DNA from: Octopus sinensis
Taxonomy: Eukaryota
DNA length: 15,520 nt
Direction: 5' to 3'
NCBI RefSeq assembly: GCF_006345805.1
Contig: NW_021825648.1
Location: 1 to 15,520 of the forward strand
In this document: in pieces, positions 679-15,520 of the stretch
How positions within the stretch are numbered: the first letter of the stretch is position 1
How the letters are laid out: every line of letters starts with the position of its first letter
The notes under the pieces: generated by a model
Told to the model about the DNA's origin: nothing
The model's database searches: none
The model's input: the letters and a program-made list of their open reading frames with translations, nothing else
Made by a program: the position numbers and the translations under genes

Positions 679-1366
679 GACATCAAGATCTGAGAACCTA
701 CGCACCACCAACGTATGGACCTACCAAGCACTAGTGCGAACGATTCTCTTTTACACAGCGAGTCATGGCCAACGAGGGTGGAAGATATTAAGCGACTAGA
801 ATCCTTCGATCACTTCTGTATTCGCTGCATCCTTCGTGTCCAATGGCATCACTTTGTCTCCAACAATTCGGTGCGTCATCAAAGCAAAATCACCTCCCTC
901 CGACAAGTCATCCTAAAGAGATGTCTGCGTTGGCTGGGTCATGCCCTCCGTCGTCAACCAGGAGAATTCATCTACGAAGCAATTGCACCAGCTCCCCTTC
1001 AGGGTTGGCGAAAGCGATGTGGTGGACAACGAGAAACCTGGCTGATGACAGTCAAGGCTGATCTGCAACCCAACCTACGAAGCAATTGCTCCAGCTCCCC
1101 TTCAGGGTTGGCGAAAGCGATGTGGTGGACAATGAAAAACCTGGCTGATGACAGTCAAGGCTGATCTGGAACACAACCTACGAAGCAATTGCCCCAGCTC
1201 CCCTTCAGGGTTATGGTCGATGAGGGTGGAAGATATTAAGAGACTAGAATCCTTCGATCACCTCTGTCTGCGCCGCATCCTTCGTGTCCAATGGCATCAC
1301 TTTGTCTCCAAAAATGCGGTGCGACACCAGTGCAAAATCACTTCCCTCCAACAAGTCATCCCAAAG
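679..1366 (+). pseudogene. Degenerate, rearranged C-terminal fragment of an RTE-clade non-LTR retrotransposon reverse transcriptase ORF
   Basis: YQALVRTIL (605..799 frame) frameshifts into SESWPTRVEDIKRLESFDHFCIRCILRVQWHHFVSN...LRWLGHALRR...RKRCGGQRETW...VKADL (715..1164 frame). These match the RTE/BovB-like motifs Y.cEsW, R.ILr..W, LRW.GH..R and R..G.....W. No YADD core is present and there are internal duplications. Confidence 0.88.
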
Positions 1367-1367
1367 A

Positions 1368-2005
1368 GTTCATGGCTTGCAGGACGGCCTGCTGTGCTAA
1401 CCTTGGATCGCTGTTCTTGAGGAGGGCTATTGAGTCAAGTACGTTAACACCAACATCAAAATGAAAATCAAATGGAAATTGTAGTTAAGGTACCCATGCT
1501 GGTGACACATAAAAAGCACAGTCCGAACGTGGCAGATGCCAGCGCCGCCTGACTGGCGTCCGTGTCGGTGACACGTAAAAAGCACCAACCGATCGAGGCC
1601 GTTTTCCAGCCTCCTCTGGCCCCTGCGACAGTGGCACGTAAAAAGCACCCACTACACTCACGGAGTGATTGGCGTTAGGAAGGGCATCCAGCTGTAGAAA
1701 CATTGCCAGATCAGACTAGAGCCTGGTGCAGCCTCCTGGCTTCCCAGACCCCAGTGGAACCATCCAACCCATGCTAGCATGGAAAACGGACGTTAAACGA
1801 TGATGATGATATATATATATATATATATATATGTAGCACCCACTACACTCTCGGAGTGGTTGGCGTTAGGAAGGGTTTCAAGCTGTAGAAACACTGGTAG
1901 ATCAGACTGGAGCCTGGTGCAGCCTCCTGGCTTCCCAGACACTGGCCGAACCGTCCACACCATGCTAGCATGGAAAACGGACATAAACGATGATATGATG
2001 ATATA

Positions 2006-2519: not shown

Positions 2520-2589
2520 CATGTCAAATAATACAAACATATTTCTTGTCATGAAGAATGTTTACCATTCATTGCTTCTCATTTTGGAA

Positions 2590-3725
2590 GCACTCCGTCG
2601 GTTACGACGATGAGGATTCCGGTTGATCCGATCAACGGAACAGCCTGCTCGTGAAATTAACGTGTAAGTGGCTGAGCACTCCACAGACACGTGTACCCTT
2701 AACGTAGTTCTCGGGGATATTCAGCGTGACACAGAGAGTGACAAGGCCGGCCTTGAAATACAGCGTACAACAGAAACAGGAAGTAAGAGTGAGAGAAAGT
2801 TGTGGTGAAAGAGTACAGCAGGGATCACCACAATCCCCTGCAGGAGCACTCCGTCGGTTACGACGATGAGGGTCCCAGGTGATCCGAATCAACGGAACAC
2901 CTGCTCCTGAAATTAACGTGTAAGGGCTGAGCACTCCACAGACACGTGTACCCTTAACGTATTCTCGGGATATTCAGCGTGACACAGAGAGTGACAAGGC
3001 CGGCCTTTGAAATACAGGTACAACAGAAAAAGAAGTAAGATTGAGAGAAGTTGTGGTGAAAGAGTACAGCAGGGATCACCACAATCCCCTGCAGGAGCAC
3101 TCCGTCGGTTACGACGATGAGGGTCCCAGGTGATCCGAATCAACGGAACAGCCTGCTCCTGAAATTAACGTGTAAGTGGCTGAGCACTCCACAGACACGT
3201 GTACCCTTAACGTAGTTCTCGGGGATATTCAGCGTGACACAGAGAGTGACAAGCCGGCCCTTGAAATACAGGTACAACAACGAAACAGGAAGTAAGAGTG
3301 AGAGAATTTGTGGTGAAAGAGTACAGCAGGGATCACCACAATCCCCGCAGGAGCACTCCGTCGGTTACGACGATGAGGGTTCCGGTGATCCGAATCAACG
3401 GAACAGCCTGCTCGTGAAATTAACGTGTAAGTGGCTGAGCACTCCACAGAACACGTGTACCTTAACGTAGTTCTCGGGGATATTCAGCGTGACACAGAGA
3501 GTGACAAGGCGGCCCCTTGAAATACAGGTACAACAGAAACAGGAAGTAAGAGTGAGAGAATGTTGTGGTGAAAGAGTACAGCAGGGATAAGCACCATCCC
3601 CTGCCGGAGCCTCGTGGAGCTTTAGGTGTTTTCGCTCAATAAACACTCACAACGCCCGGTCTGGAAATCGAAACTGCGATCCTACGACTGCGAGTCCGCT
3701 GCACTAACGACTGGGTCATTGCGCC
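2590..3725 (-). mobile_element. tRNA-derived SINE family C with its 3' ~255 bp tandemly quadruplicated
   Basis: Reverse complement of the single copy at 7346-7735, with the tRNA-like head at about 3655-3725. Repeat units begin at gcactccgtcgg at 2590, 2846, 3097 and 3353. Confidence 0.88.
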
Positions 3726-4477: not shown

Positions 4478-5965
4478 TTTTATATATAAAACTGAAGTTG
4501 TGTGTCTGTCTCCTACGATTTAGATTCCTAACTACTCCCACATTTTGCGGTGCAGTGTAACCAAAACCGGGTATCTTATAGTCGTGATTCATATCGAGCC
4601 CTTCTGGGTATTAGCGCGCGTCTACGATGAGTCTACGATTTAAAAAAAATTTACCATGAATTTTCCCCATTTTTAATGCATTTTTTTGCTATTTTTTGCT
4701 CTATAACTCTCTAAAAATGCTTATATAGTTATTCCCTTACAAACCGAGCAACGTCGGGCGATACTGCTAGTTTATATATAAAAGTAAGGTTTTGTGTCTG
4801 TCTCCTACGATTTAGATTCCTAACTAATCCCACATTTTGCGGTGCAGTTTAACCAAAAGCGGGTATCTTATAGTCGTGATTCATATCGAGCCCTTCTTGG
4901 TACTAGCGCGCGTCTACGATGAGTCAACGATTAAAAAAAAAAATTTACCATCAATTTTTCCCATTTTTAGTGCATTTTTTGGCTATAACTCTCTAAAAAT
5001 GCCTATATAGTTATTTCCCTTACAAACCCGAGCAACGTCGGGCGATACTGCTAGTTTATATATAAAAGTAAGGTTTTGTGTCTGTCTCCTACGATTTAGA
5101 TTCCTAACTACTCCCACATTTTGCGGTGTAGTTTAACCAAAACCGGGTATCTTATAGTCGTGATTCATATCGAGCCCTTCTGGGTATTAGCGTGCGTCTA
5201 CGATGAGTCTACGATTTTAAAAAAATTTACCATCAATTTTCCCCATTTTTAATGCATTTTTTTGCTATTTTTTGGCTATAACTCTCTAAAAATGCTTATA
5301 TAGTTATTTCCCTTACAAACCCGAGCAACGTCGGGCGATACTGCTAGTTTATATATAAAAGTAAGGTTTTGTGTCTGTCTCCTACGATTTAGATTCCTAA
5401 CTACTCCCACATTTTGCGGTGTAGTTTAACCAAAACCGGGTATCTTATAGTCGTGATTCATATCGAGCCCTTCTGGGTATTAGCGCGCGTCTACGATGAG
5501 TCTACGATTTAAAAAAAATTTACCATCAATATTCCCCATTTTTAATGCATTTTTTTGCTATTTTTTGGCTATAACTCTCTAAAAATGCTTATATAGTTAC
5601 TTCCCTTACAAACCCGAGCAACGTCGGGCGATACTGCTAGTTTATATATAAAAGTAAGGTTTTGTGTCTGTCTAATCCGATTTAGATTCCTAACTACTCC
5701 CACATTTTGCGGTGTAGTTTAACCAAAACCGGGTATCTTATAGTCGTGATTCATATCGAGCCCTTCTGCGTATTAGCGCGCGTCTACGATGAGTCTACGA
5801 TTTAAAAAAAATTTACCATCAATTTTTCCCATTTTTAATGCATTTTTTGCTATTTTTTGGCTATAACTCTATAAAAATGCTTATATAGTTATTTCCCTTG
5901 CAAACCCGAGCAACGCCGGACGATACTCTTATAGTCGTGATTCATATTGAGCCCTTCTGGGTATT
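4478..5965 (+). mobile_element. Head-to-tail array of ~290-bp non-autonomous Helitron-like element (family E), 5 units plus a partial unit
   Basis: Units start tttatatataaaa and end with the hairpin cccgagcaacgtcggg followed by cgatactgCTAG (CTAG ends at 4770, 5054, 5347, 5640). The fifth unit lacks CTAG and jumps into an internal segment. Confidence 0.85.
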
Positions 5966-6757: not shown

Positions 6758-7270
6758 AAGGTATACAATGTAGAGAGAAAAAAAGATTTGAACACATGGA
6801 GGAAAGCACCTTCGAAAAGTGTCTTGGTGCTACTATGAAAGAGGCAGTAAATTTGCCTCAATAGAAGCAAGGTTCGAGTCAACGGTGCGCGCAAGGGAGT
6901 ACTCGACTCGAACTTGCAAAGTGGAAATATTTTATTTTTACCTTTATATCTGGGACGTACGACGTCCCAGATAAAAATTAAAAATGTCCCCCACCCCAGA
7001 GGTTAAGGTAGGCTGGATTGTAGCCACACTTCTATACAAGAGGGAGGACAAGATACAATTGATCGAAATTACAAGAGACGGGCTTACAATTCCAGTCTGT
7101 TATATATTTTGAGTATTGTTATCACTAGCGATATCAAGATATAACTTTGTATTTTGTATTTTATGTGTAGGTGTATATATATAGATGTACATGTAATATG
7201 TACACATATATATACGCATATATACATGCACTAGAACTATGACCCGGCAACGACGGGTCTTTAATGCTAG
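6758..7270 (+). mobile_element. Non-autonomous Helitron-like element family F (5' boundary uncertain)
   Basis: Ends in hairpin gacccg-gcaacga-cgggtc, then tttaatg CTAG|T. Homologous to 7271-7884 and to minus-strand pieces between 10824 and 12602. Confidence 0.7.
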
Positions 7271-7884
7271 TAAAGTATACAATGTAGAGAAAAAAGAAGA
7301 GCTAACAATTCCAGTCTGTTATATATTTTGAGTATTGTTATCACTGGCGCAATGGCACAGTGGTTAGGGCAGCGGATTCGCGGTCGTAGGATCGCGGTTT
7401 CGATTCCCAGACCGGGCGTTGTGGGTGTTTATTGAGCGAAAACACCTAAAAGCTCCCCGAGGCTCCGGCAGGAGATGGTGGTGATCCCTGCTGTACTCTT
7501 TCACCACAACTTTCTCTCACTCTTACTTCCTGTTTCTGTTGTGCCTGTATTTCAAAGGGCCGGCCTTGTCACTCTCTGTGTCACGCTGAATATCCCTGAG
7601 AACTACGTTAAGGGTACACGTGTCTGTGGAGTGCTCAGCCACTTACACGTTAATTTCACGAGCAGGCTGTTCCATTGATTCGGATCAACCGGAACCCTCG
7701 TCGTCGTAACCGACGGAGTGCATCCATCCATCCCATTACTAGCGATATCAAGATATAACTTTGTATTTTGCATTTTATCTGTAGATGTATATATATATAT
7801 GTACATGTAATATGTACACATATATATACGCATATATACATGCACTAGCACTATGACCCGGCAACGACGGGTCTTTAATGCTAG
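7271..7884 (+). mobile_element. Second, internally deleted tandem copy of Helitron-like family F, interrupted by SINE C
   Basis: 7273-7345 matches about 6760-6785 joined to 7082-7126. 7741-7884 continues the match to 7127-7270, with the same hairpin and CTAG. Confidence 0.75.
7346..7735 (+). mobile_element. Full-length tRNA-derived SINE family C
   Basis: Head ggcgcaatggcacagtggttagggc (A box-like) ... gtttcgattccc (B box-like) and a (tcca)n tail. Flanked by atcact (7340-7345) and attact (7735-7740), a TSD-like pair. The empty site is visible at about 7120-7135. Confidence 0.9.
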
Positions 7885-8384
7885 TCTTTATATATAAAAG
7901 TGAAGTTGTGTGTCTGTCTCCTACGATTTAGATTCCTAACTACTCCCACATTTTGCGGTGCAGTGTAACCAAAAGCGGGTATCTTATAGTCGTGATTCAT
8001 ATCGAGCCCTTCTGGGTATTAGCGCGCGTCTATGATGAGTCTACGATTTAAAAAAAAAATTACCATCATTTTCTTCCATTTTAATGCATTTTTCGATATT
8101 ATATAAAGGAAGTAACTCTCTAAACATGTCTGCGATGAGTCAACGATTTAAAAAGAAATTTACTATCATTTTTTTCCAATTTAATGCATTTTTTTCGCTA
8201 TTATATAAGGGAAGAAACTCTCTAAAAATGTCTACGATGAGTCAACGATTTTAAAAAAAAATTACCATCATTTTTATTTCCATTTTTAATGCGTTTTTTT
8301 GCTATTTTTTGGCTATAACTCTCTAAAAATGTTTATATAGTTATTTCCCGTACAAACCCGAGCAACGCCGGGCGATACTGCTAG
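7885..8384 (+). mobile_element. Helitron-like family E, single long copy with three internal ~80-bp subrepeats
   Basis: Starts TC (tctttatatataaaag) and ends with hairpin cccgagcaacgccggg + CTAG|T. Contains a repeated gatgagtc(a/t)acgatttaaaaa...aactctctaaa module. Confidence 0.85.
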
Positions 8385-8617
8385 TATACAATAAAACTTT
8401 CCGGCTATAAATCAACTAAAGTCTTTCATCAAGAGTCTTTTCAAAATTCTTACATCAAAAGCCCATCTTGAGTGATGGATAGCTTTCATAGCGCTTCTTG
8501 CATCTAACAAATAACCACTAGAGAATCTATGGCTTTCACTTCTCAAATTCAGTGTAACTATTAAAATGGAGTTAAGAGTTCAAATCCAAGAAGTAAGCAT
8601 ATTTTTAGAGTAAACTT

Positions 8618-9195: not shown

Positions 9196-10510
9196 CTAGC
9201 AGGATTGTCCGGTGTTGCTCGGGTTTGTTTCGACCTTTTAGAATTAGAATTTTTGAAAAGTAAAAAATTTGCATTATGTAGCTTGTTATTCTCTTTAGGT
9301 GAACATTTTTCTGGTTGAAATACACCGAAAAATAGCGACACGGCTATCAAAAAATCGTAAAAAATAGGGATTTTCATAGAAAAAAAACACCCTTTTTGAT
9401 GTAAATAATTTTTGGTGTTAACATGGTCCGATTTGAATTTATTTTCTACGGAATGAAGAGCAAGCCTTCTTCTATCATACTCTCAATTTAGGTCAACTTG
9501 CGGCGCATGGTCTCAGAGGAGATAGTGTTAGTTGAAGGCTACCAAACCTGCCTTACACATACAGACAACTTCAGCTTTATAAATAGTAAAAAATAGGGAA
9601 TTTCATAGAAAGAAAAGCACCTTTTTTAAGTAAATAATTTTTGGTGTTAACATGGTCCGCTTCGAATTTTATTTTCTACGGAATGAAGAGCAAGCCTTCT
9701 TCTATCATACTCTCAATTTTGGTCAACTTGCACCGCAGGGTCTCGGAGGAGATAGTGTTAGTTGAAGGCTACCGAACCTGCCTTACACATACAGATAACT
9801 TCAGCTTTATAAATCGTAAAAAATTGGGATTTTCATAAAAAAAAGCACCCTTTTGATGTAAATAATTTTTGGTGTTAACATGGTCTGATTTGAATTTTAT
9901 CTTCTACGGAATGAAGAGCAAGCCTTCTTCTATCATACTCTTAATTTTGATCAACTTGCGGCGCAGGGTCTCGGAGGAGATAGTGTTAGTTGAAGGCTAC
10001 CAAACCTGCCTTACACATACAGACAACTTCAGAATTATAAATCGTAAAAAATAGGGATTTTTATAGAAAAAAAGCACCTTTTTGATGTAAATAATTTTTG
10101 GTGTTAACATGGTCCAATTTGAATTTTATCTTCTACGGAATGAAGAGCAAGCCTTCTTCTATCATACTCTCAATTTTGGTCAACCTGCACCACAGGGTCT
10201 CGGAGGAGATAGAGTTAGTTGAATGCTACCAAAAAATAGGGATTTTCATAGAAAAAAAGCACGTTTTTGATGTAAATAATTTTTGGTGTTAACATGTTCG
10301 ATTTGAATTTTATCTTCTACGGAATGAAGAGCAAGCCTTCTTCTATCATACTCTCAATTTTGGTCAACTTGCACCACAGGGTCTCGGAGGAGATAGAGTT
10401 AGTTGAATGCTACCAAAAAATAGGGATTTTCATAGAAAAAAAGCACGTTTTTGATGTAAATAATTTGTGGTGTTAACATGGTCCGATTTGAATTTTATCT
10501 TTTACGGAAT
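9196..10510 (-). mobile_element. Helitron-like family G: one complete ~387-bp element (9196-9582) plus tandem repeats of its 5' ~229 bp
   Basis: Minus-strand 3' end cccgagcaacaccgg...ctgCTAG|T at 9196. Units start at 9352, 9581, 9811 and 10039, followed by ~185-bp deleted units. The minus-strand unit start tataaagctgaagttgtctg resembles the family E 5' end tataaaactgaagttgtgtg. Confidence 0.8.
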
Positions 10511-10881: not shown

Positions 10882-11666
10882 AGGAGTGGCTGTGTGGTAA
10901 GTAGCTTGCTAACCAACCACATGGTTCCGGGTTCAGTCCCACTGCGAGGCACCATGGGCAAGTGTCTTCTGCTATAGCCCCGGGCCGACCAATGCCTTGT
11001 GAGTGAATTTGATAGACAGAAACTGAAAGAAGCCCGTCGTATATATATGTATATATATATATAGGCGCTGGAGTGGCTGTGTGGTAAGTAGCTTGCTTAC
11101 CAACCACATGGTTCCGGGTTCAGTCCCACTGCGTGGCACCTTGGGCGTGGCACCTTGGGCAAGTGTCTTCTGCTATAGCCCCGGGCCGACCAATGCCTTG
11201 TGAGTGAATTTGATAGACAGAAACTGAAAGAAGCCCGTCGTATATATATGTATTATATATAGGCGCTGGAGTGGCTGTGTGGTAAGTAGCTTGCTTACCA
11301 ACCACATGGTTCCGGGTTCAGTCCCACTGCGTGGCACCTTGGGCGTGGCACCTTGGGCAAGTGTCTTCTGCTATAGCCCCGGGCCGACCAATGCCTTGTG
11401 AGTGGATTTGGTAGACGGAAACTGAAAGAAGCCTGTCGTATATATTATATATGTGTGTATGTGTGTGTGTTTGTCCCCCTAGCATTGCTTGACAACCGAT
11501 GCTGGTGTGTTTACGTCCCCGTCACATAGCGGTCCGGCAAAAAGAGACCGATAGAATAAGTACTGGGCTTACAAATAATAATTCCCGGGGTCGATTTGCT
11601 CAACTAAAGGCGGTGCTCCAGCATGGACGCAGTCAAATGACTAAAACAAGTAAAAGAGTAAAAGAG
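10882..11666 (+). mobile_element. SINE family A: two 5' halves (10882-11040, 11064-11241) followed by a full copy (11262-11666)
   Basis: Direct match to 3899-4322, with a taaaagagtaaaagag tail. The second and third heads carry a 14-bp duplication gcgtggcaccttgg. Confidence 0.9.
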
Positions 11667-11707
11667 TATATGTGTACATATTACATGTACATCTATATAT
11701 ATACATA

Positions 11708-12114
11708 CTTTTTTTACTCTTTTACTTGTTTCAGTCATTTGACTGCGGCCATGCTGGAGCACCGCCTTTAGTCGAGCAACTCGACCCCGGGACTTATTCT
11801 TTGTCAGCCCAGTACTTATTCTGTCGGTCTCTTTTTGCCGAACCGCTAGGTGACGGTGGCGTAAACACACCAGCATCGGTTGTCAAGCAATGCTAGGGGA
11901 ACAAACACAGACACACAAACACACACACACATATATATATGTACATATATACGACAGGCTTCTTTCAGTTTCCGTCTACCAAATCCACTCACAAGGCATT
12001 GGTCGGCCCGGGGCTATAGCAGAAGACACTTGCCCAAGATGCCACGCAGTGGGACTGAACCCAGAACCATGTGGTTAGTTTGCAAGCTACTTACCACACA
12101 GCCACTCCTGCGCC
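11708..12114 (-). mobile_element. Full-length SINE family A, minus strand
   Basis: Reverse complement of 3899-4322; the head ends at ctcctgcgcc (12105-12114). Confidence 0.9.
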
Positions 12115-12650
12115 TATATATATATATATCTACGCATAAAATACAAAATACAAAGTTCTTGATATCGCTAATGATAACAATACTCAAAATATATAACAGA
12201 CTGGAATTGTAGGTCCGTCTCTTGTAATTTCGATCAATTGTATATTGTCCTCCCTCTTGTATAGAAGTGTGGCTACAAATCAGCCTACATCTATTTCTGG
12301 AGGGGGCATTTAGAATTTTTTTCCGGGACGTCCTACGTCCCAGATATAAAGGTAAGAATAAAATATTTCCACTTTGCAAGGTTCGAGTCGAGTACTCCCT
12401 TGCATGCTCTGTTGACTCGAACCTTGCTTCTATTGTGGCAAATTTACCACCTCTGATTAGATATCTTTCATAGTGCTAGTGCATGTATATATGTGTATAT
12501 ATATGTGTACATATTACATGTACATCTATATATATATACATCTACACATAAAATACAAAATACAAAGTTATATCTTGATATCGCTAGTGATAACAATACT
12601 CAGACCATGTTATCACTAGAGGTCAGCCGCTTTATCCTGCCAGTCAGACA

Positions 12651-12693
12651 GCTGCAGACATGTTTCAGGGTATTTGCCCTTTATCAATGCAGC
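12651..12693 (-). ncRNA. Minimal type-I hammerhead ribozyme-like motif (U3-A8 variant)
   Basis: Exact reverse complement of 12834-12876. Confidence 0.8.
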
Positions 12694-12833
12694 GTAGTCA
12701 GACCCAGCAGGTGTCGCTACTGACTGTCCCTGTTCGAAGAATCTATTTACCTAGTTTCAGTGGAATACATCCACTTGTTTTCAATAATAGAAATATGGGA
12801 CAGTCAGTAGCGACACCTGCTGGGTCTGACTAC

Positions 12834-12876
12834 GCTGCATTGATAAAGGGCAAATACCCTGAAACATGTCTGCAGC
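12834..12876 (+). ncRNA. Minimal type-I hammerhead ribozyme-like motif (U3-A8 variant)
   Basis: GCUGCA UUGAUAA AGGG-caaaua-CCCU GAAA CAUG UC / UGCAGC: 6-bp stem I, 4-bp stem II, palindromic ACAUGU stem III. Predicted cleavage after C12870. Confidence 0.8.
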
Positions 12877-13101
12877 TGTCTGACTGGCAGGATGAAGCGG
12901 CTGACCTCCCCTGTTCGAAGGTTTATAATGGACGCAGGTTGTGTGTCAAATAGCTAGCTTGAGGCGGTGGCCTCTTGGAGCTAATCAGCGACAGCTTTAG
13001 TCTTATATTTATAAGACTGCCATATAAGTATAGCGATTACTATTAATTCCCAGTAACGCTGCCGTAATCTCTTTTAGAGAGACTTCGTAATTTAATATTT
13101 C

Positions 13102-13139
<38 letters not shown>

Positions 13140-13147
13140 ATATATAT

Positions 13148-13361
13148 GGAAAAAAAAATCAAGATAGAAAATGCTAAAATAATTTCATAAAAAACATTTC
13201 AGTACCGGTTTCAATCATTGAGACATTTTCAACTGTAACAATTAAATATTTAAATGGTTCCTGATCTCTGTTCTAAAGGTTCTAAGAATCCATCCGGTCA
13301 GCCGCCTATATTTCATTGCTAATTTAGCAACATGCACATGAAAGGTTGCATCATCACTCAT
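13148..13361 (-). mobile_element. Hammerhead-bearing dispersed repeat (putative Penelope-like terminal repeat), copy 1
   Basis: Direct repeat of 15316-15520. Both copies follow (TA)n tracts. Confidence 0.65.
13200..13235 (-). ncRNA. Degenerate hammerhead-like motif (U3-A8 variant)
   Basis: Minus strand CAG UUGAAAA UGUC-ucaau-GAUU GAAA CCGG UA / CUG. Stem II is weakened in this copy. Confidence 0.5.
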
Positions 13362-13413
13362 GTAAATACCCGGATTGGCACTAAGGGAGAATGACTTTCC
13401 CCAGACAGAACAG

Positions 13414-13556: not shown

Positions 13557-13558
<2 letters not shown>

Positions 13559-13661
13559 CGGAGTAAACACATAAATGTGAAACAAGGTGGGAAAAAGAGT
13601 ACTCAAATACCAGTGGTAGAGTAATATGCTTTATTTAAAGCAGCAGAAAATTCAACAAAAC

Positions 13662-13699
13662 CTGTTACTCTGAGTTTCACGTTCCCGTTCGTCGGACAG
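13662..13699 (-). ncRNA. Minimal type-I hammerhead ribozyme-like motif (CCGACGA core)
   Basis: Minus strand CUGU CCGACGA ACG-ggaa-CGU GAAA CUCAGAG UA / ACAG. Confidence 0.7.
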
Positions 13700-13729
13700 T
13701 TTTTGCTAAACAGTTTTTGCTAGCAAAAA

Positions 13730-13767
13730 CTGTCCGACGAACGGCAACGTGAAACTCAGAGTAACAG
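13730..13767 (+). ncRNA. Minimal type-I hammerhead ribozyme-like motif (CCGACGA core)
   Basis: CUGU CCGACGA ACG-gcaa-CGU GAAA CUCAGAG UA / ACAG. Stem I extends through AAAA/UUUU, stem II carries a GNRA loop, and predicted cleavage is after A13763. Confidence 0.7.
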
Positions 13768-13812
13768 GTTTTGTTGAATTTTCTGCTGCTTTAAATAAAG
13801 TATATATATATA

Positions 13813-14788
13813 TCTTTATATATAAAAGAAAGGTTGTGTGTCTGTCTAATCCGATTTAGATTCCTAACTACTCCCACATTTTGCGGTGCAGTTTAACCAA
13901 AACCGGGTATCTTATAGTCGTGATTCATATCAAGCCCTTCTGGGTATTAGCGCACGTCTACAATGAGTCTACGATTTTAAAAATAATTTACCATCATTTT
14001 TTTCCATTTTAATGCATTTTTTACTATTTTTTGGCTATAACTCTCTAAAAATGCTTTATAGTTATTTCCCTTACAAACCCGAGCAACGTCGGGCGATACT
14101 GCTAGTTTTATATAAAAGTAAGGTTGTGTGTCTGTCTACTCCGATTTAGATTCCTAACTACTCCCACATTTTGCGGTGCAGTTTAACCAAAAGCGGATAT
14201 CTTATAGTCGTGATTCATATCAAGTCCTTCTGGGTATTAGCGCGCGTCTACAATGAGTCTACGATTTTGAAAAAAGATTACCATCATTTTTTTTTCCATT
14301 TTAATGCATTTTTTACTATTTTTTGCTATAACTCTCTAAAATGCTTTATAGTTATTTCCCTTACAAACCCGAGCAACGTCGGCGATACTGCTAGTTTTAT
14401 ATAAAAGTAAGGTTTTGTGTCTGTCTACTCCGATTTAGATTCCTAACTACTCCCACATTTTGTGGCGTGCAGTTTAACCAAAAGCGGATATCTTATAGTC
14501 GTGATTCATATCAAGTCCTTCTGGGTATTAGCGCGCGTCTACAATGAGTCTACGATTTTGAAAAAAGATTACCATCATTTTTTTCCATTTTAATGCATAT
14601 TTTTTTAAATATAAGGGAAGTAACTCTCTAAAAATGTCTACGATGAGTCAACGATTTAAAAAAAAATTTACCATAATTTTTCTTTACATTTTTAATGCAT
14701 TTTTTGCTATTTTTTGGCTATAACTCTCTAAATCTGCTTTATAGTTATTTCCCTTACAAACCCGAGCAACGCCGGGCGATACTGCTAG
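13813..14788 (+). mobile_element. Helitron-like family E, head-to-tail array of 3 units
   Basis: A|TC start at 13813, hairpin + CTAG ending at 14105, 14394 and 14788, followed by T. The third unit has an extra internal subrepeat. Confidence 0.88.
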
Positions 14789-14796
14789 TATATATA

Positions 14797-15296
14797 TCTA
14801 TATATATAAAACTCTAGTTGTGTGAGTGTCTGTCCCCTTCGATTTAGATTCCTAACTCCTCCCACATTTTGCGGTGCGTTTAACCAAATTCGGGTATCTT
14901 ATAGTCGTGATTCATATCGAGCCCGTCTGACTATTAGCGCGCGTCAACGATGAGTCTACGATTTAAAAAAAATTTAACATCATTTTTTTATTCCATTTAA
15001 TGCATAAAATGCATCGTATGTCGATGGCGGCGGAGTTGGCGTCCACGCTCACAGCTGCACCTGTTTGCTTCTCCCCCTTCCCTCCCTCGTGAAGCTGTTG
15101 GGAAGGGAGTGTAAAGAAATCAACGTCGTAATGCGTTGTGAAGGAAACCAGCGTTCTTTTAGAACAACGACTTCATGGCTTGAAGACCCAAAACAAAAAT
15201 GGCTAAGAAAGCCCGAATTTATAAGGAAGTAACTCTTTAAAAATGCTTATATGTTATTTCCCTTACAATCCGAGCAACGCCGGGCGATACTGCTAG
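14797..15296 (+). mobile_element. Helitron-like family E variant with a distinct ~210-bp interior
   Basis: A|TCtatatatataaaa start and ccgagcaacgccggg...CTAG|T end. About 15005-15215 is absent from the other E copies. Confidence 0.85.
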
Positions 15297-15315: not shown

Positions 15316-15520
15316 GGAAAAAAATCAAATGCTAAAATAATTTTATAAAACATTTCAGTACCGGTTTCAGTCATTGAGGCTTTTTCAACTGTAACAATTA
15401 AATATTTAAATGGTTTCCTGGTCTCTTGTTCTAAAGGTTCTAAGAATCCATCCGGTCAGCCGCCTACATTTCATTGCCAATTTAGCAACATGCACATGAA
15501 AGGTTGCATCATCACTCATG
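15316..15520 (-). mobile_element. Hammerhead-bearing dispersed repeat, copy 2 (window-truncated)
   Basis: Direct repeat of 13148-13361. Confidence 0.65.
15356..15391 (-). ncRNA. Hammerhead-like motif (U3-A8 variant)
   Basis: Minus strand CAG UUGAAAA AGCC-ucaau-GACU GAAA CCGG UA / CUG, with palindromic ACCGGU stem III and one C-A mismatch in stem II. Confidence 0.55.

What the first reader, a model, noticed from the sequence alone, without database searches (positions are those of the whole stretch)
12619..12920. 112-bp inverted repeat carrying two opposed U3-A8 hammerheads
Seen: arms 12619-12730 and 12797-12908 differ at one position. Each contains GCUGCA-UUGAUAA-AGGGcaaauaCCCU-GAAA-CAUG-UC-UGCAGC, perfect in all three stems. 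The C3>U and G8>A changes together keep the 3-8 pair. Both arms are followed by the same 12-mer ccctgttcgaag (12728-12739, 12909-12920). Inference: a recent Penelope-like insertion with an inverted terminal repeat. Transcription from either strand gives one ribozyme plus its antisense, so the long hairpin could compete with cleavage.
Basis: partly seen in the sequence, partly recalled or inferred. Interest (0 to 1): 0.8.

Follow-up and report, generated by a model that had tools for sequence, protein, structure and literature searches.

The report
Inverted insertion of a hammerhead retrozyme
The two back-to-back self-cleaving RNA motifs are one half-inverted insertion of a 365-base protein-free mobile repeat (a retrozyme) with hundreds of copies in this genome, and the ends of its copies follow the same rule as the genome's own Penelope-like retrotransposons, which likely move it.

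Summary
Observation confirmed: 112-nt arms, one mismatch, a U3-A8 type I hammerhead in each. The repeat is not a terminal inverted repeat. It is the overlap of two oppositely oriented, 5'-truncated copies of a 365-nt ORF-less unit with about 580 hammerhead-bearing copies in the genome, a non-LTR retrozyme. No Penelope ORF lay beside any of 86 loci. Copies end in (TA)n at two fixed points 60 nt apart. Of 41 classifiable inverted insertions, 40 pair one long end with one short end. A homologous sister family (8 of 9) and the genome's autonomous Penelope-like element (6 of 6) do the same. Both arms share one haplotype, arms run up to 2.7 units, and they pass through the cleavage site. This points to Penelope-type double priming on a circular or multimeric RNA. 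Four homologous families show compensatory changes in the hammerhead, including U3-A8 versus C3-G8. This window copy is probably inert: its ribozymes cannot pair in cis, and the hairpin is predicted to unfold them. U3-A8 cores, opposed pairs and tail asymmetry are in print; the insertion-level link for retrozymes was not in the texts I saw. The scan noted a similar case in another genome. Expression untested.

The parts
12619..12796 (-). Inverted arm: last 13 nt of the previous unit (u353-365) plus unit positions 1-165; its outer end is abnormal (ends at u165, not at the short end near u305)
12651..12693 (-). Type I hammerhead, U3-A8 core, predicted cleavage after 12657
12797..13107 (+). Forward arm: unit positions 54-365, 5'-truncated, ending at the long (tail-bearing) end
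12834..12876 (+). Type I hammerhead, U3-A8 core, predicted cleavage after 12870
12728..12739 (-). 5' half of the unit's internal 12-bp inverted repeat (u45-56) that closes the long rod carrying the hammerhead
12909..12920 (+). 3' half of the same internal 12-bp inverted repeat (u166-177)
13048..13107 (+). About 60-nt 'tail' between the two fixed 3' ends (u~305 and u~365); start approximate
13105..13147 (.). (TA)n target microsatellite
12603..12619 (.). Left junction: 5-nt filler plus an inverted copy of 12584-12595; the flanking repeat is cut off at 12602. Likely repair scar of a deletion that removed the outer part of the inverted arm
   Evidence: (sequence), table 7 (normal continuation of the flanking repeat); the repair reading is inference

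Best explanation
The feature is one head-to-head inverted, 5'-truncated insertion of a 365-nt ORF-less hammerhead repeat (a non-LTR retrozyme), likely copied into a (TA)n tract in trans by a Penelope-like RT/GIY-YIG protein. Shown: the unit, its copy number, its two fixed 3' ends, the long+short pairing of arms, the shared haplotype of both arms, and compensatory change in the hammerhead across four families. Inferred: tandem copies are transcribed, self-cleave as dimeric hammerheads and give a circular monomer (or stay an uncut multimer). The PLE protein cuts both target strands. Each free end primes reverse transcription at its own start site on the RNA (u~305 and u~365). The two cDNAs stop at unrelated points and are joined end to end, often by short microhomology. 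Where both pass the hammerhead, two opposed ribozymes result. The window copy then likely lost the outer ~140 nt of its inverted arm, and it is predicted to be an inert by-product.
For: Unit and multimers. Copy number: 56 exact 43-nt hammerheads; 581 loose matches against 7 for the reversed control. No PLE ORF or shared flank at 86 loci. End rule: of 50 simple inverted insertions, 41 have both ends at a fixed end; 40 are long+short, 1 long+long, 0 short+short (binomial p 4e-11, 38 distinct junctions). Same rule in sister family B (8 of 9), in the window's second hammerhead repeat (6 of 6) and in an autonomous RVT_1+GIY-YIG element of this genome (two ends 40 nt apart, 6 of 6). Arms share rare variants at 31.8 per 10,000 sites against 0.89 between loci. 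At polymorphic sites, arms were discordant 19 times against 85 expected, tandem units 18 against 43. 22 of 80 arms exceed one unit, the longest 1000 nt; 3 of 137 5' breakpoints lie near the cleavage site, 4.1 expected. 21 of 40 inversions cannot be fold-backs of one cDNA. Covariation: all 6 stem I pairs and the 3-8 pair (UA 7, CG 6, other 1 of 14) change on both sides. Unit fold z = -8.8. Literature: two RT start sites, cutting of both strands and the tail in PMC11167929; tail on one inverted pLTR in PMC3846280 and PMC8557442.
Against: No specific partner was found. The sampled autonomous PLE shares only the hammerhead core boxes with the unit; in local alignment its pLTR scored no higher than shuffled controls, and its tail is 40 nt, not 60. 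Cleavage, circles and expression were not shown; one search used contigs of runs only guessed to be RNA. The loci are not a random sample (30 came from a query holding the inversion, the rest from hammerhead patterns), which inflates the inverted share and the arms that cross the cleavage site. Shared variants could also come from gene conversion between arms. The covariation rows are about four lineages chosen for an intact core, and the 10.1-11.1 pair fails in 8 of 14. The window copy itself breaks the end rule at its left end, and no listed contig bridged its junctions.
Confidence: 0.78

Rival explanations
1. The unit is the pseudo-LTR of an autonomous Penelope-like element not yet sampled, and these loci are its solo, truncated ends.
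For: Same insertion signature as PLEs. Most PLE hammerheads occur as solo truncated motifs, some opposed 100-700 bp apart (PMC4209133). Only 86 loci of several hundred were read.
Against: All 22 arms longer than one unit run into another copy of the unit, never into coding sequence. In the true PLE the tail leads into ORF1; here it leads back to u1. The hammerhead has the canonical 6-bp/4-bp shape, not the minimal PLE shape.
Confidence: 0.1
2. The inversion forms by fold-back self-priming of a single cDNA, or by priming on an antisense template, as proposed for rotifer Penelope palindromes, rather than by two primers.
For: Head-to-head geometry; junction microhomology and recurrent junctions at the unit's internal inverted repeat; proposed in PMC3846280. 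19 of 40 inversions are compatible with containment of one arm in the other.
Against: 21 of 40 have arms that are not contained in each other in either direction. A fold-back gives no reason for the second arm to stop at the other fixed end in 40 of 41 cases.
Confidence: 0.07
3. The palindrome at this locus is a long-read assembly artefact or a DNA-level rearrangement of a satellite unit.
For: The window is a whole 15.5-kb unplaced, repeat-filled contig. No listed contig bridged its junctions. The left end is abnormal. Local amplification of retrozyme arrays is proposed in bioRxiv 10.64898/2026.07.22.740005.
Against: It is not a mirror: the arms are offset with a 66-nt centre of unit sequence, the right end is the exact long end in (TA)n, and 49 other simple inversions, mostly on chromosome-scale contigs, have the same build.
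Confidence: 0.05

Closest known systems
Metazoan non-LTR retrozymes (Cervera and de la Pena 2020, PMC7229834), e.g. the 350-390 bp Mytilus repeats
   Same: ORF-less 150-450 bp unit, one type I hammerhead per unit, head-to-tail multimers, GC under 50%, strongly self-paired predicted circle, many dispersed copies, coexisting PLEs
   Different: U3-A8 core; mostly 1-2.7 units rather than long arrays; frequent inverted 5' arms, two fixed 3' ends and (TA)n targeting, none of which appeared in the parts of the paper that I read; circles not shown here
EN+ Penelope-like element insertions (PMC3846280, PMC8557442, PMC11167929)
   Same: 5' truncation, partial tandems, head-to-head inverted arm, tail on only one end, AT-rich or (TA)n target, hammerhead
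   Different: No RT or GIY-YIG ORF; the tail leads back into the unit; the tail is about 60 nt (45 in family B) against 30-40; canonical rather than minimal hammerhead
U3-A8 minimal hammerheads of Schistosoma PLEs (PMC4209133)
   Same: Same core covariation; opposed pairs 100-700 bp apart; palindromic helix III
   Different: Here in a canonical 6-bp stem I / short stem II frame, in a retrozyme clan whose sister families keep C3-G8
Non-autonomous Chlamys elements such as MRC1 (PMC8557442, passage)
   Same: Non-autonomous, PLE-mobilised, head-to-tail multicopy insertions
   Different: Those share 3' sequence with an autonomous family; no such partner was found here

Membership tests
Non-LTR retrozyme | Short (150-450 bp) unit with no coding capacity | tested here: met
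   365-nt unit; no PLE ORF at 86 loci
Non-LTR retrozyme | Type I hammerhead in each unit | tested here: met
   U3-A8 variant; Rfam gave no hammerhead hit at E<=1
Non-LTR retrozyme | Head-to-tail tandem copies with at least two hammerheads | tested here: met
   L011, L048, L050, L108, L117, L120; not at the window locus itself
Non-LTR retrozyme | Highly self-paired monomer, GC under 50%, no LTR-type flanks | tested here: met
   z = -8.8; GC about 43%; ends run into (TA)n. PBS and PPT were not searched for
Non-LTR retrozyme | Self-cleavage in vitro | not testable with these tools
   Only covariation and folding
Non-LTR retrozyme | Expressed as linear and circular monomer RNA | tested here: inconclusive
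   contigs from runs only guessed to be RNA; no strand, ends or level
Autonomous Penelope-like element | ORF with RT and GIY-YIG between pLTRs | tested here: not met
PLE-type insertion (works like) | 5' truncation, inverted 5' arm, tail at only one end, microsatellite target | tested here: met
   40 of 41; control PLE 6 of 6
PLE-type insertion (works like) | Sequence shared with a specific autonomous partner | tested here: inconclusive
   Only the core boxes UUGAUAA and GAAACAUGU are shared with one PLE family; 30 of 147 GIY-YIG places plus 12 longer stretches were examined
MITE or DNA transposon with terminal inverted repeats | Fixed terminal inverted repeats and target-site duplication | tested here: not met
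   Arm breakpoints differ among loci, and 37 of 93 insertions are single-orientation; the 12-mer is internal to the unit

The most novel reading that the evidence does not exclude
This clan is a fossil record of Penelope proteins copying retrozyme RNA circles by double priming: one dimeric RNP cuts both target strands and starts each cDNA at its own fixed site on the same circular monomer, which gives the strict long+short arm rule, arms longer than one unit and one haplotype per insertion. It would be the first insertion-level evidence for both the mobiliser and the circular template of animal retrozymes, with a ready in vitro substrate.
Probability: 0.35. Interest if true: 0.7.

Novelty: new member of a known kind. 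Interest (0 to 1): 0.42.

Why it matters
The locus alone is one of hundreds and probably inert. The family matters more. Which enzyme moves animal retrozymes is still argued from co-occurrence and phylogeny (PMC7229834 discussion; bioRxiv 10.64898/2026.07.22.740005, which asks for work on mobilisation). Here the insertion ends of ORF-less retrozymes obey the same two-end, one-tail rule as a PLE in the same genome. The 40 of 41 pairing also turns the two RT start sites seen in vitro (PMC11167929) into a testable model: one start site per target strand. The clan gives a natural U3-A8 versus C3-G8 swap in homologous ribozymes.

Tried and rejected
Rfam scan of the window: no hammerhead family at E<=1; only generic miRNA-hairpin hits below gathering score, rejected.

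Linked ORF: the candidate pair 3.95 kb apart (L091) encloses an unrelated ORF; no PLE ORF at any of 86 loci (ORFs were listed for L091-L130, shared flanks were checked for L001-L030, and only unit maps and ends were read for L031-L060).

Partner search: GIY-YIG scan (147 places, 30 loci read), 12 longer stretches and local alignment. The two hits above the shuffled maximum (58 and 50 against 38-44) were sister retrozymes lying near PLEs, not PLE ends.

Expression: no RNA holder listed on record. Contigs of four runs cover the unit, but the neighbouring repeat too; A>G differences also occur in the large unclassified runs, so no editing claim; no contig bridged this locus's junctions. No evidence either way.

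Exact microhomology count is noisy: five loci served as their own templates and mismatches near junctions read as gaps. 16 of 23 gap-free junctions overlap by 2 nt or more (about 16% expected); 23 of 46 scored as gapped. Treated as weak. The negative correlation of arm lengths (rho -0.42) was dropped as a sampling effect.

Circle versus homogeneous multimer could not be separated.

Lunse et al. 2017 is not held; only its title was seen, in a reference list. Supplements of PMC7229834 and PMC4209133 were not read and could list cephalopod or U3-A8 retrozymes. Repbase and Dfam could not be searched.

Full report
Observation. The two arms are real: 112 nt each, one difference at 12633/12894. Each holds a type I hammerhead with a U3-A8 core; cleavage is predicted after 12870 (+) and 12657 (-). 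None of 40 shuffles gave a motif this strict. Helix III (ACAUGU) is palindromic and leaves a 2-nt loop, the form that PMC4209133 describes as needing a second ribozyme in tandem. Rfam did not call it. The window is a whole 15,520-base contig of a 2.72-Gb genome, filled with repeats. That the host is an octopus is my recall from its SINEs, not a tested result.

What the arms belong to. A search of the own genome gave 107 matches from 40 scored candidates of 2338. Mapping them showed a 365-nt unit in head-to-tail copies (natural reference L011:1448-1812, 'u'). The window copy is an inverted stretch (u353-365 plus u1-165, window 12619-12796) joined without overlap to a forward stretch (u54-365, 12797-13107) that ends in (TA)n. 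The 112-bp repeat is the part both stretches share, u54-165. The 66-nt spacer is unit sequence. The 12-mer is the unit's own inverted repeat (u45-56 with u166-177), which closes a long rod with the hammerhead at its tip (z = -8.8). The exact 43-nt hammerhead occurs 56 times and a looser pattern 581 times against 7 for the reversed control. Opposed pairs within 1 kb number 5 in the first list and 12 in the first 100 rows of the second, all head-to-head.

No ORF. After removing duplicates, 86 loci gave 93 insertions: 50 simple inverted, 37 single-orientation, 6 complex. None runs into a Penelope ORF. Arms longer than one unit always continue into another unit. This fits a non-LTR retrozyme as defined in PMC7229834 and not an autonomous PLE.

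Insertion signature. Copies end at two fixed points, u~305 and u~365, followed by (TA)n. Nine of the 50 simple inversions have an eroded or atypical end, the window copy among them, and were left out. Of the other 41, 40 pair a long end with a short end, one is long+long (L119, whose left arm in fact runs on into the next unit), and none is short+short (p = 4e-11, 38 distinct junctions). Sister family B does the same in 8 of 9 classifiable inversions among 20 loci, and so does the window's second hammerhead repeat in 6 of 6 (7 loci). As a control, this genome has intact-ORF PLEs (775-883 aa frames, RVT_1 plus GIY-YIG). One family of them ends in (TA)n at two points 40 nt apart; in the 6 of 14 long-end loci where an inverted second end was in range, it was the short end each time. 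A tail on only one inverted pLTR is a known PLE mark (PMC3846280; PMC8557442). PMC11167929 traces it to two RT start sites and shows that the protein cuts and extends both target strands.

Template. Both arms of an insertion share rare non-CpG variants at 31.8 per 10,000 sites (39 shared, 265 not), tandem units at 38.5, and different loci at 0.89. At sites polymorphic within a subfamily, arms disagree 19 times in 328 against 85 expected, tandem units 18 in 168 against 43. No insertion mixed the old and young subfamilies. Among the 80 arms of the 40 long+short insertions, 58 pass the cleavage site and 22 exceed one unit (the sample favours arms that hold the ribozyme); the longest is 1000 nt. 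Only 3 of 137 5' breakpoints lie within 5 nt of the cleavage site, 4.1 expected. So a cleaved linear monomer was not the usual template; a circle or an uncut homogeneous multimer was (inference). In 21 of 40 neither arm is contained in the other, which excludes a fold-back of one cDNA there. Gene conversion between arms could add to the shared variants and was not excluded.

Is the ribozyme under selection? Local alignment turned up homologous families: B (353 nt) and C with C3-G8, and D mostly with U3-A8. In 14 hand-picked intact rows, all six stem I pairs, two stem II pairs, two stem III pairs and the 3-8 pair change on both sides; 46 such cells against 18.3 in shuffles, 0 of 500 reaching it. 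These rows are about four lineages, so the count overstates independence, and the 10.1-11.1 pair fails in 8 of 14. Private mutation rates within family A are about the same inside and outside the ribozyme (0.013 against 0.013-0.024), as expected for neutral genomic copies.

This locus. The two ribozymes lie on opposite strands, so one transcript carries only one, and it cannot form the cis dimer. With both arms, stems I and II are predicted at probability 0.00, against 0.97-0.99 for the single arm, monomer or circle. The left end stops at u165 beside a 5-nt filler and a 12-nt inverted duplication of the flank, which is itself cut short; I read this as a later deletion with a templated repair scar (inference). 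Expression could not be judged.

Partner. One PLE family carries a U3-A8 minimal hammerhead with the same core boxes and the same palindromic helix III. It shares nothing else above shuffled controls, and its tail is shorter. It is a candidate only.

What is known. U3-A8 cores and opposed dual hammerheads 100-700 bp apart are in PMC4209133. PLE mobilisation of retrozymes is proposed in PMC7229834 from shared hammerheads, tandems and co-occurrence, and in bioRxiv 10.64898/2026.07.22.740005 from distribution and phylogeny; in the latter's main text 'tail' occurs 0 times and 'inverted' once, in a reference title. Searches for retrozyme+Penelope+inverted, retrozyme+octopus, octopus+Penelope+hammerhead, tail/inverted/pLTR and U3-A8 listed no paper on this family or on the end rule in retrozymes; the library lacks most subscription papers, Repbase and Dfam. 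Seen: PMC4209133 parts 1-2 of 4; PMC11167929 parts 1-2 of 4; PMC7229834 discussion, first third of results and passages; the 2026 preprint part 1 of 5 and passages; PMC8557442, PMC3846280 and PMC11722881 passages only; no supplements.

Verdict. A real but ordinary copy of a new member of a known kind. The family-level end rule is a useful, testable addition to an open question. Interest 0.42.

Noticed in passing
window 13557-13806: A second head-to-head pair of hammerheads (core CCGACGA, cleavage predicted after 13666 on - and 13763 on +). It is a ~156-nt element with a ~67-nt tail on one arm only; 6 of 7 loci holding it are inverted long+short pairs. No parent PLE was sought.
   Followed up: partly
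window 13150-13410 and 15317-15520, minus strand: Two copies of another AT-rich repeat beside (TA)n with a degenerate U3-A8 minimal-hammerhead-like motif; better-preserved relatives were seen in L073 and L179.
   Followed up: no
L146:1468-1820; L164-L174; L125:1150-1850 and L175-L182: Three sister retrozyme families (B, C, D) homologous to the unit over its whole length, each with over 2000 first-look candidates in the genome.
   Followed up: partly
L132:2253-4595, L135, L139: Young autonomous PLE family with intact 780-aa RT+GIY-YIG frames, an upstream 479-aa ORF with no Pfam match, a U3-A8 minimal hammerhead and a 40-nt tail.
   Followed up: partly
window 4479-5927, 7877-8394, 13819-14990; 6830-7260, 12130-12602: Tandem ~290-nt units and a second repeat that end in a short hairpin followed by CTAG, which recalls non-autonomous Helitrons (label from memory).
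   Followed up: no
window 694-1420: ORF fragments that resemble the C-terminal part of an RTE-type LINE protein, with 103-nt tandem duplications (label from memory).
   Followed up: no
window 11452-11923: A 212-nt inverted repeat formed by two opposed copies of a very common SINE-like element.
   Followed up: no
window 2589-3610 and 9352-10510: Tandem arrays of 255-nt and 229/184-nt units; my hammerhead descriptors found no motif in them.
   Followed up: partly
unit positions 165, 188, 235 (family A): Recurrent C>T or G>A changes in non-CpG TCC/GGA context that differ between arms of one insertion more often than lineage variants do; cause unknown.
   Followed up: no
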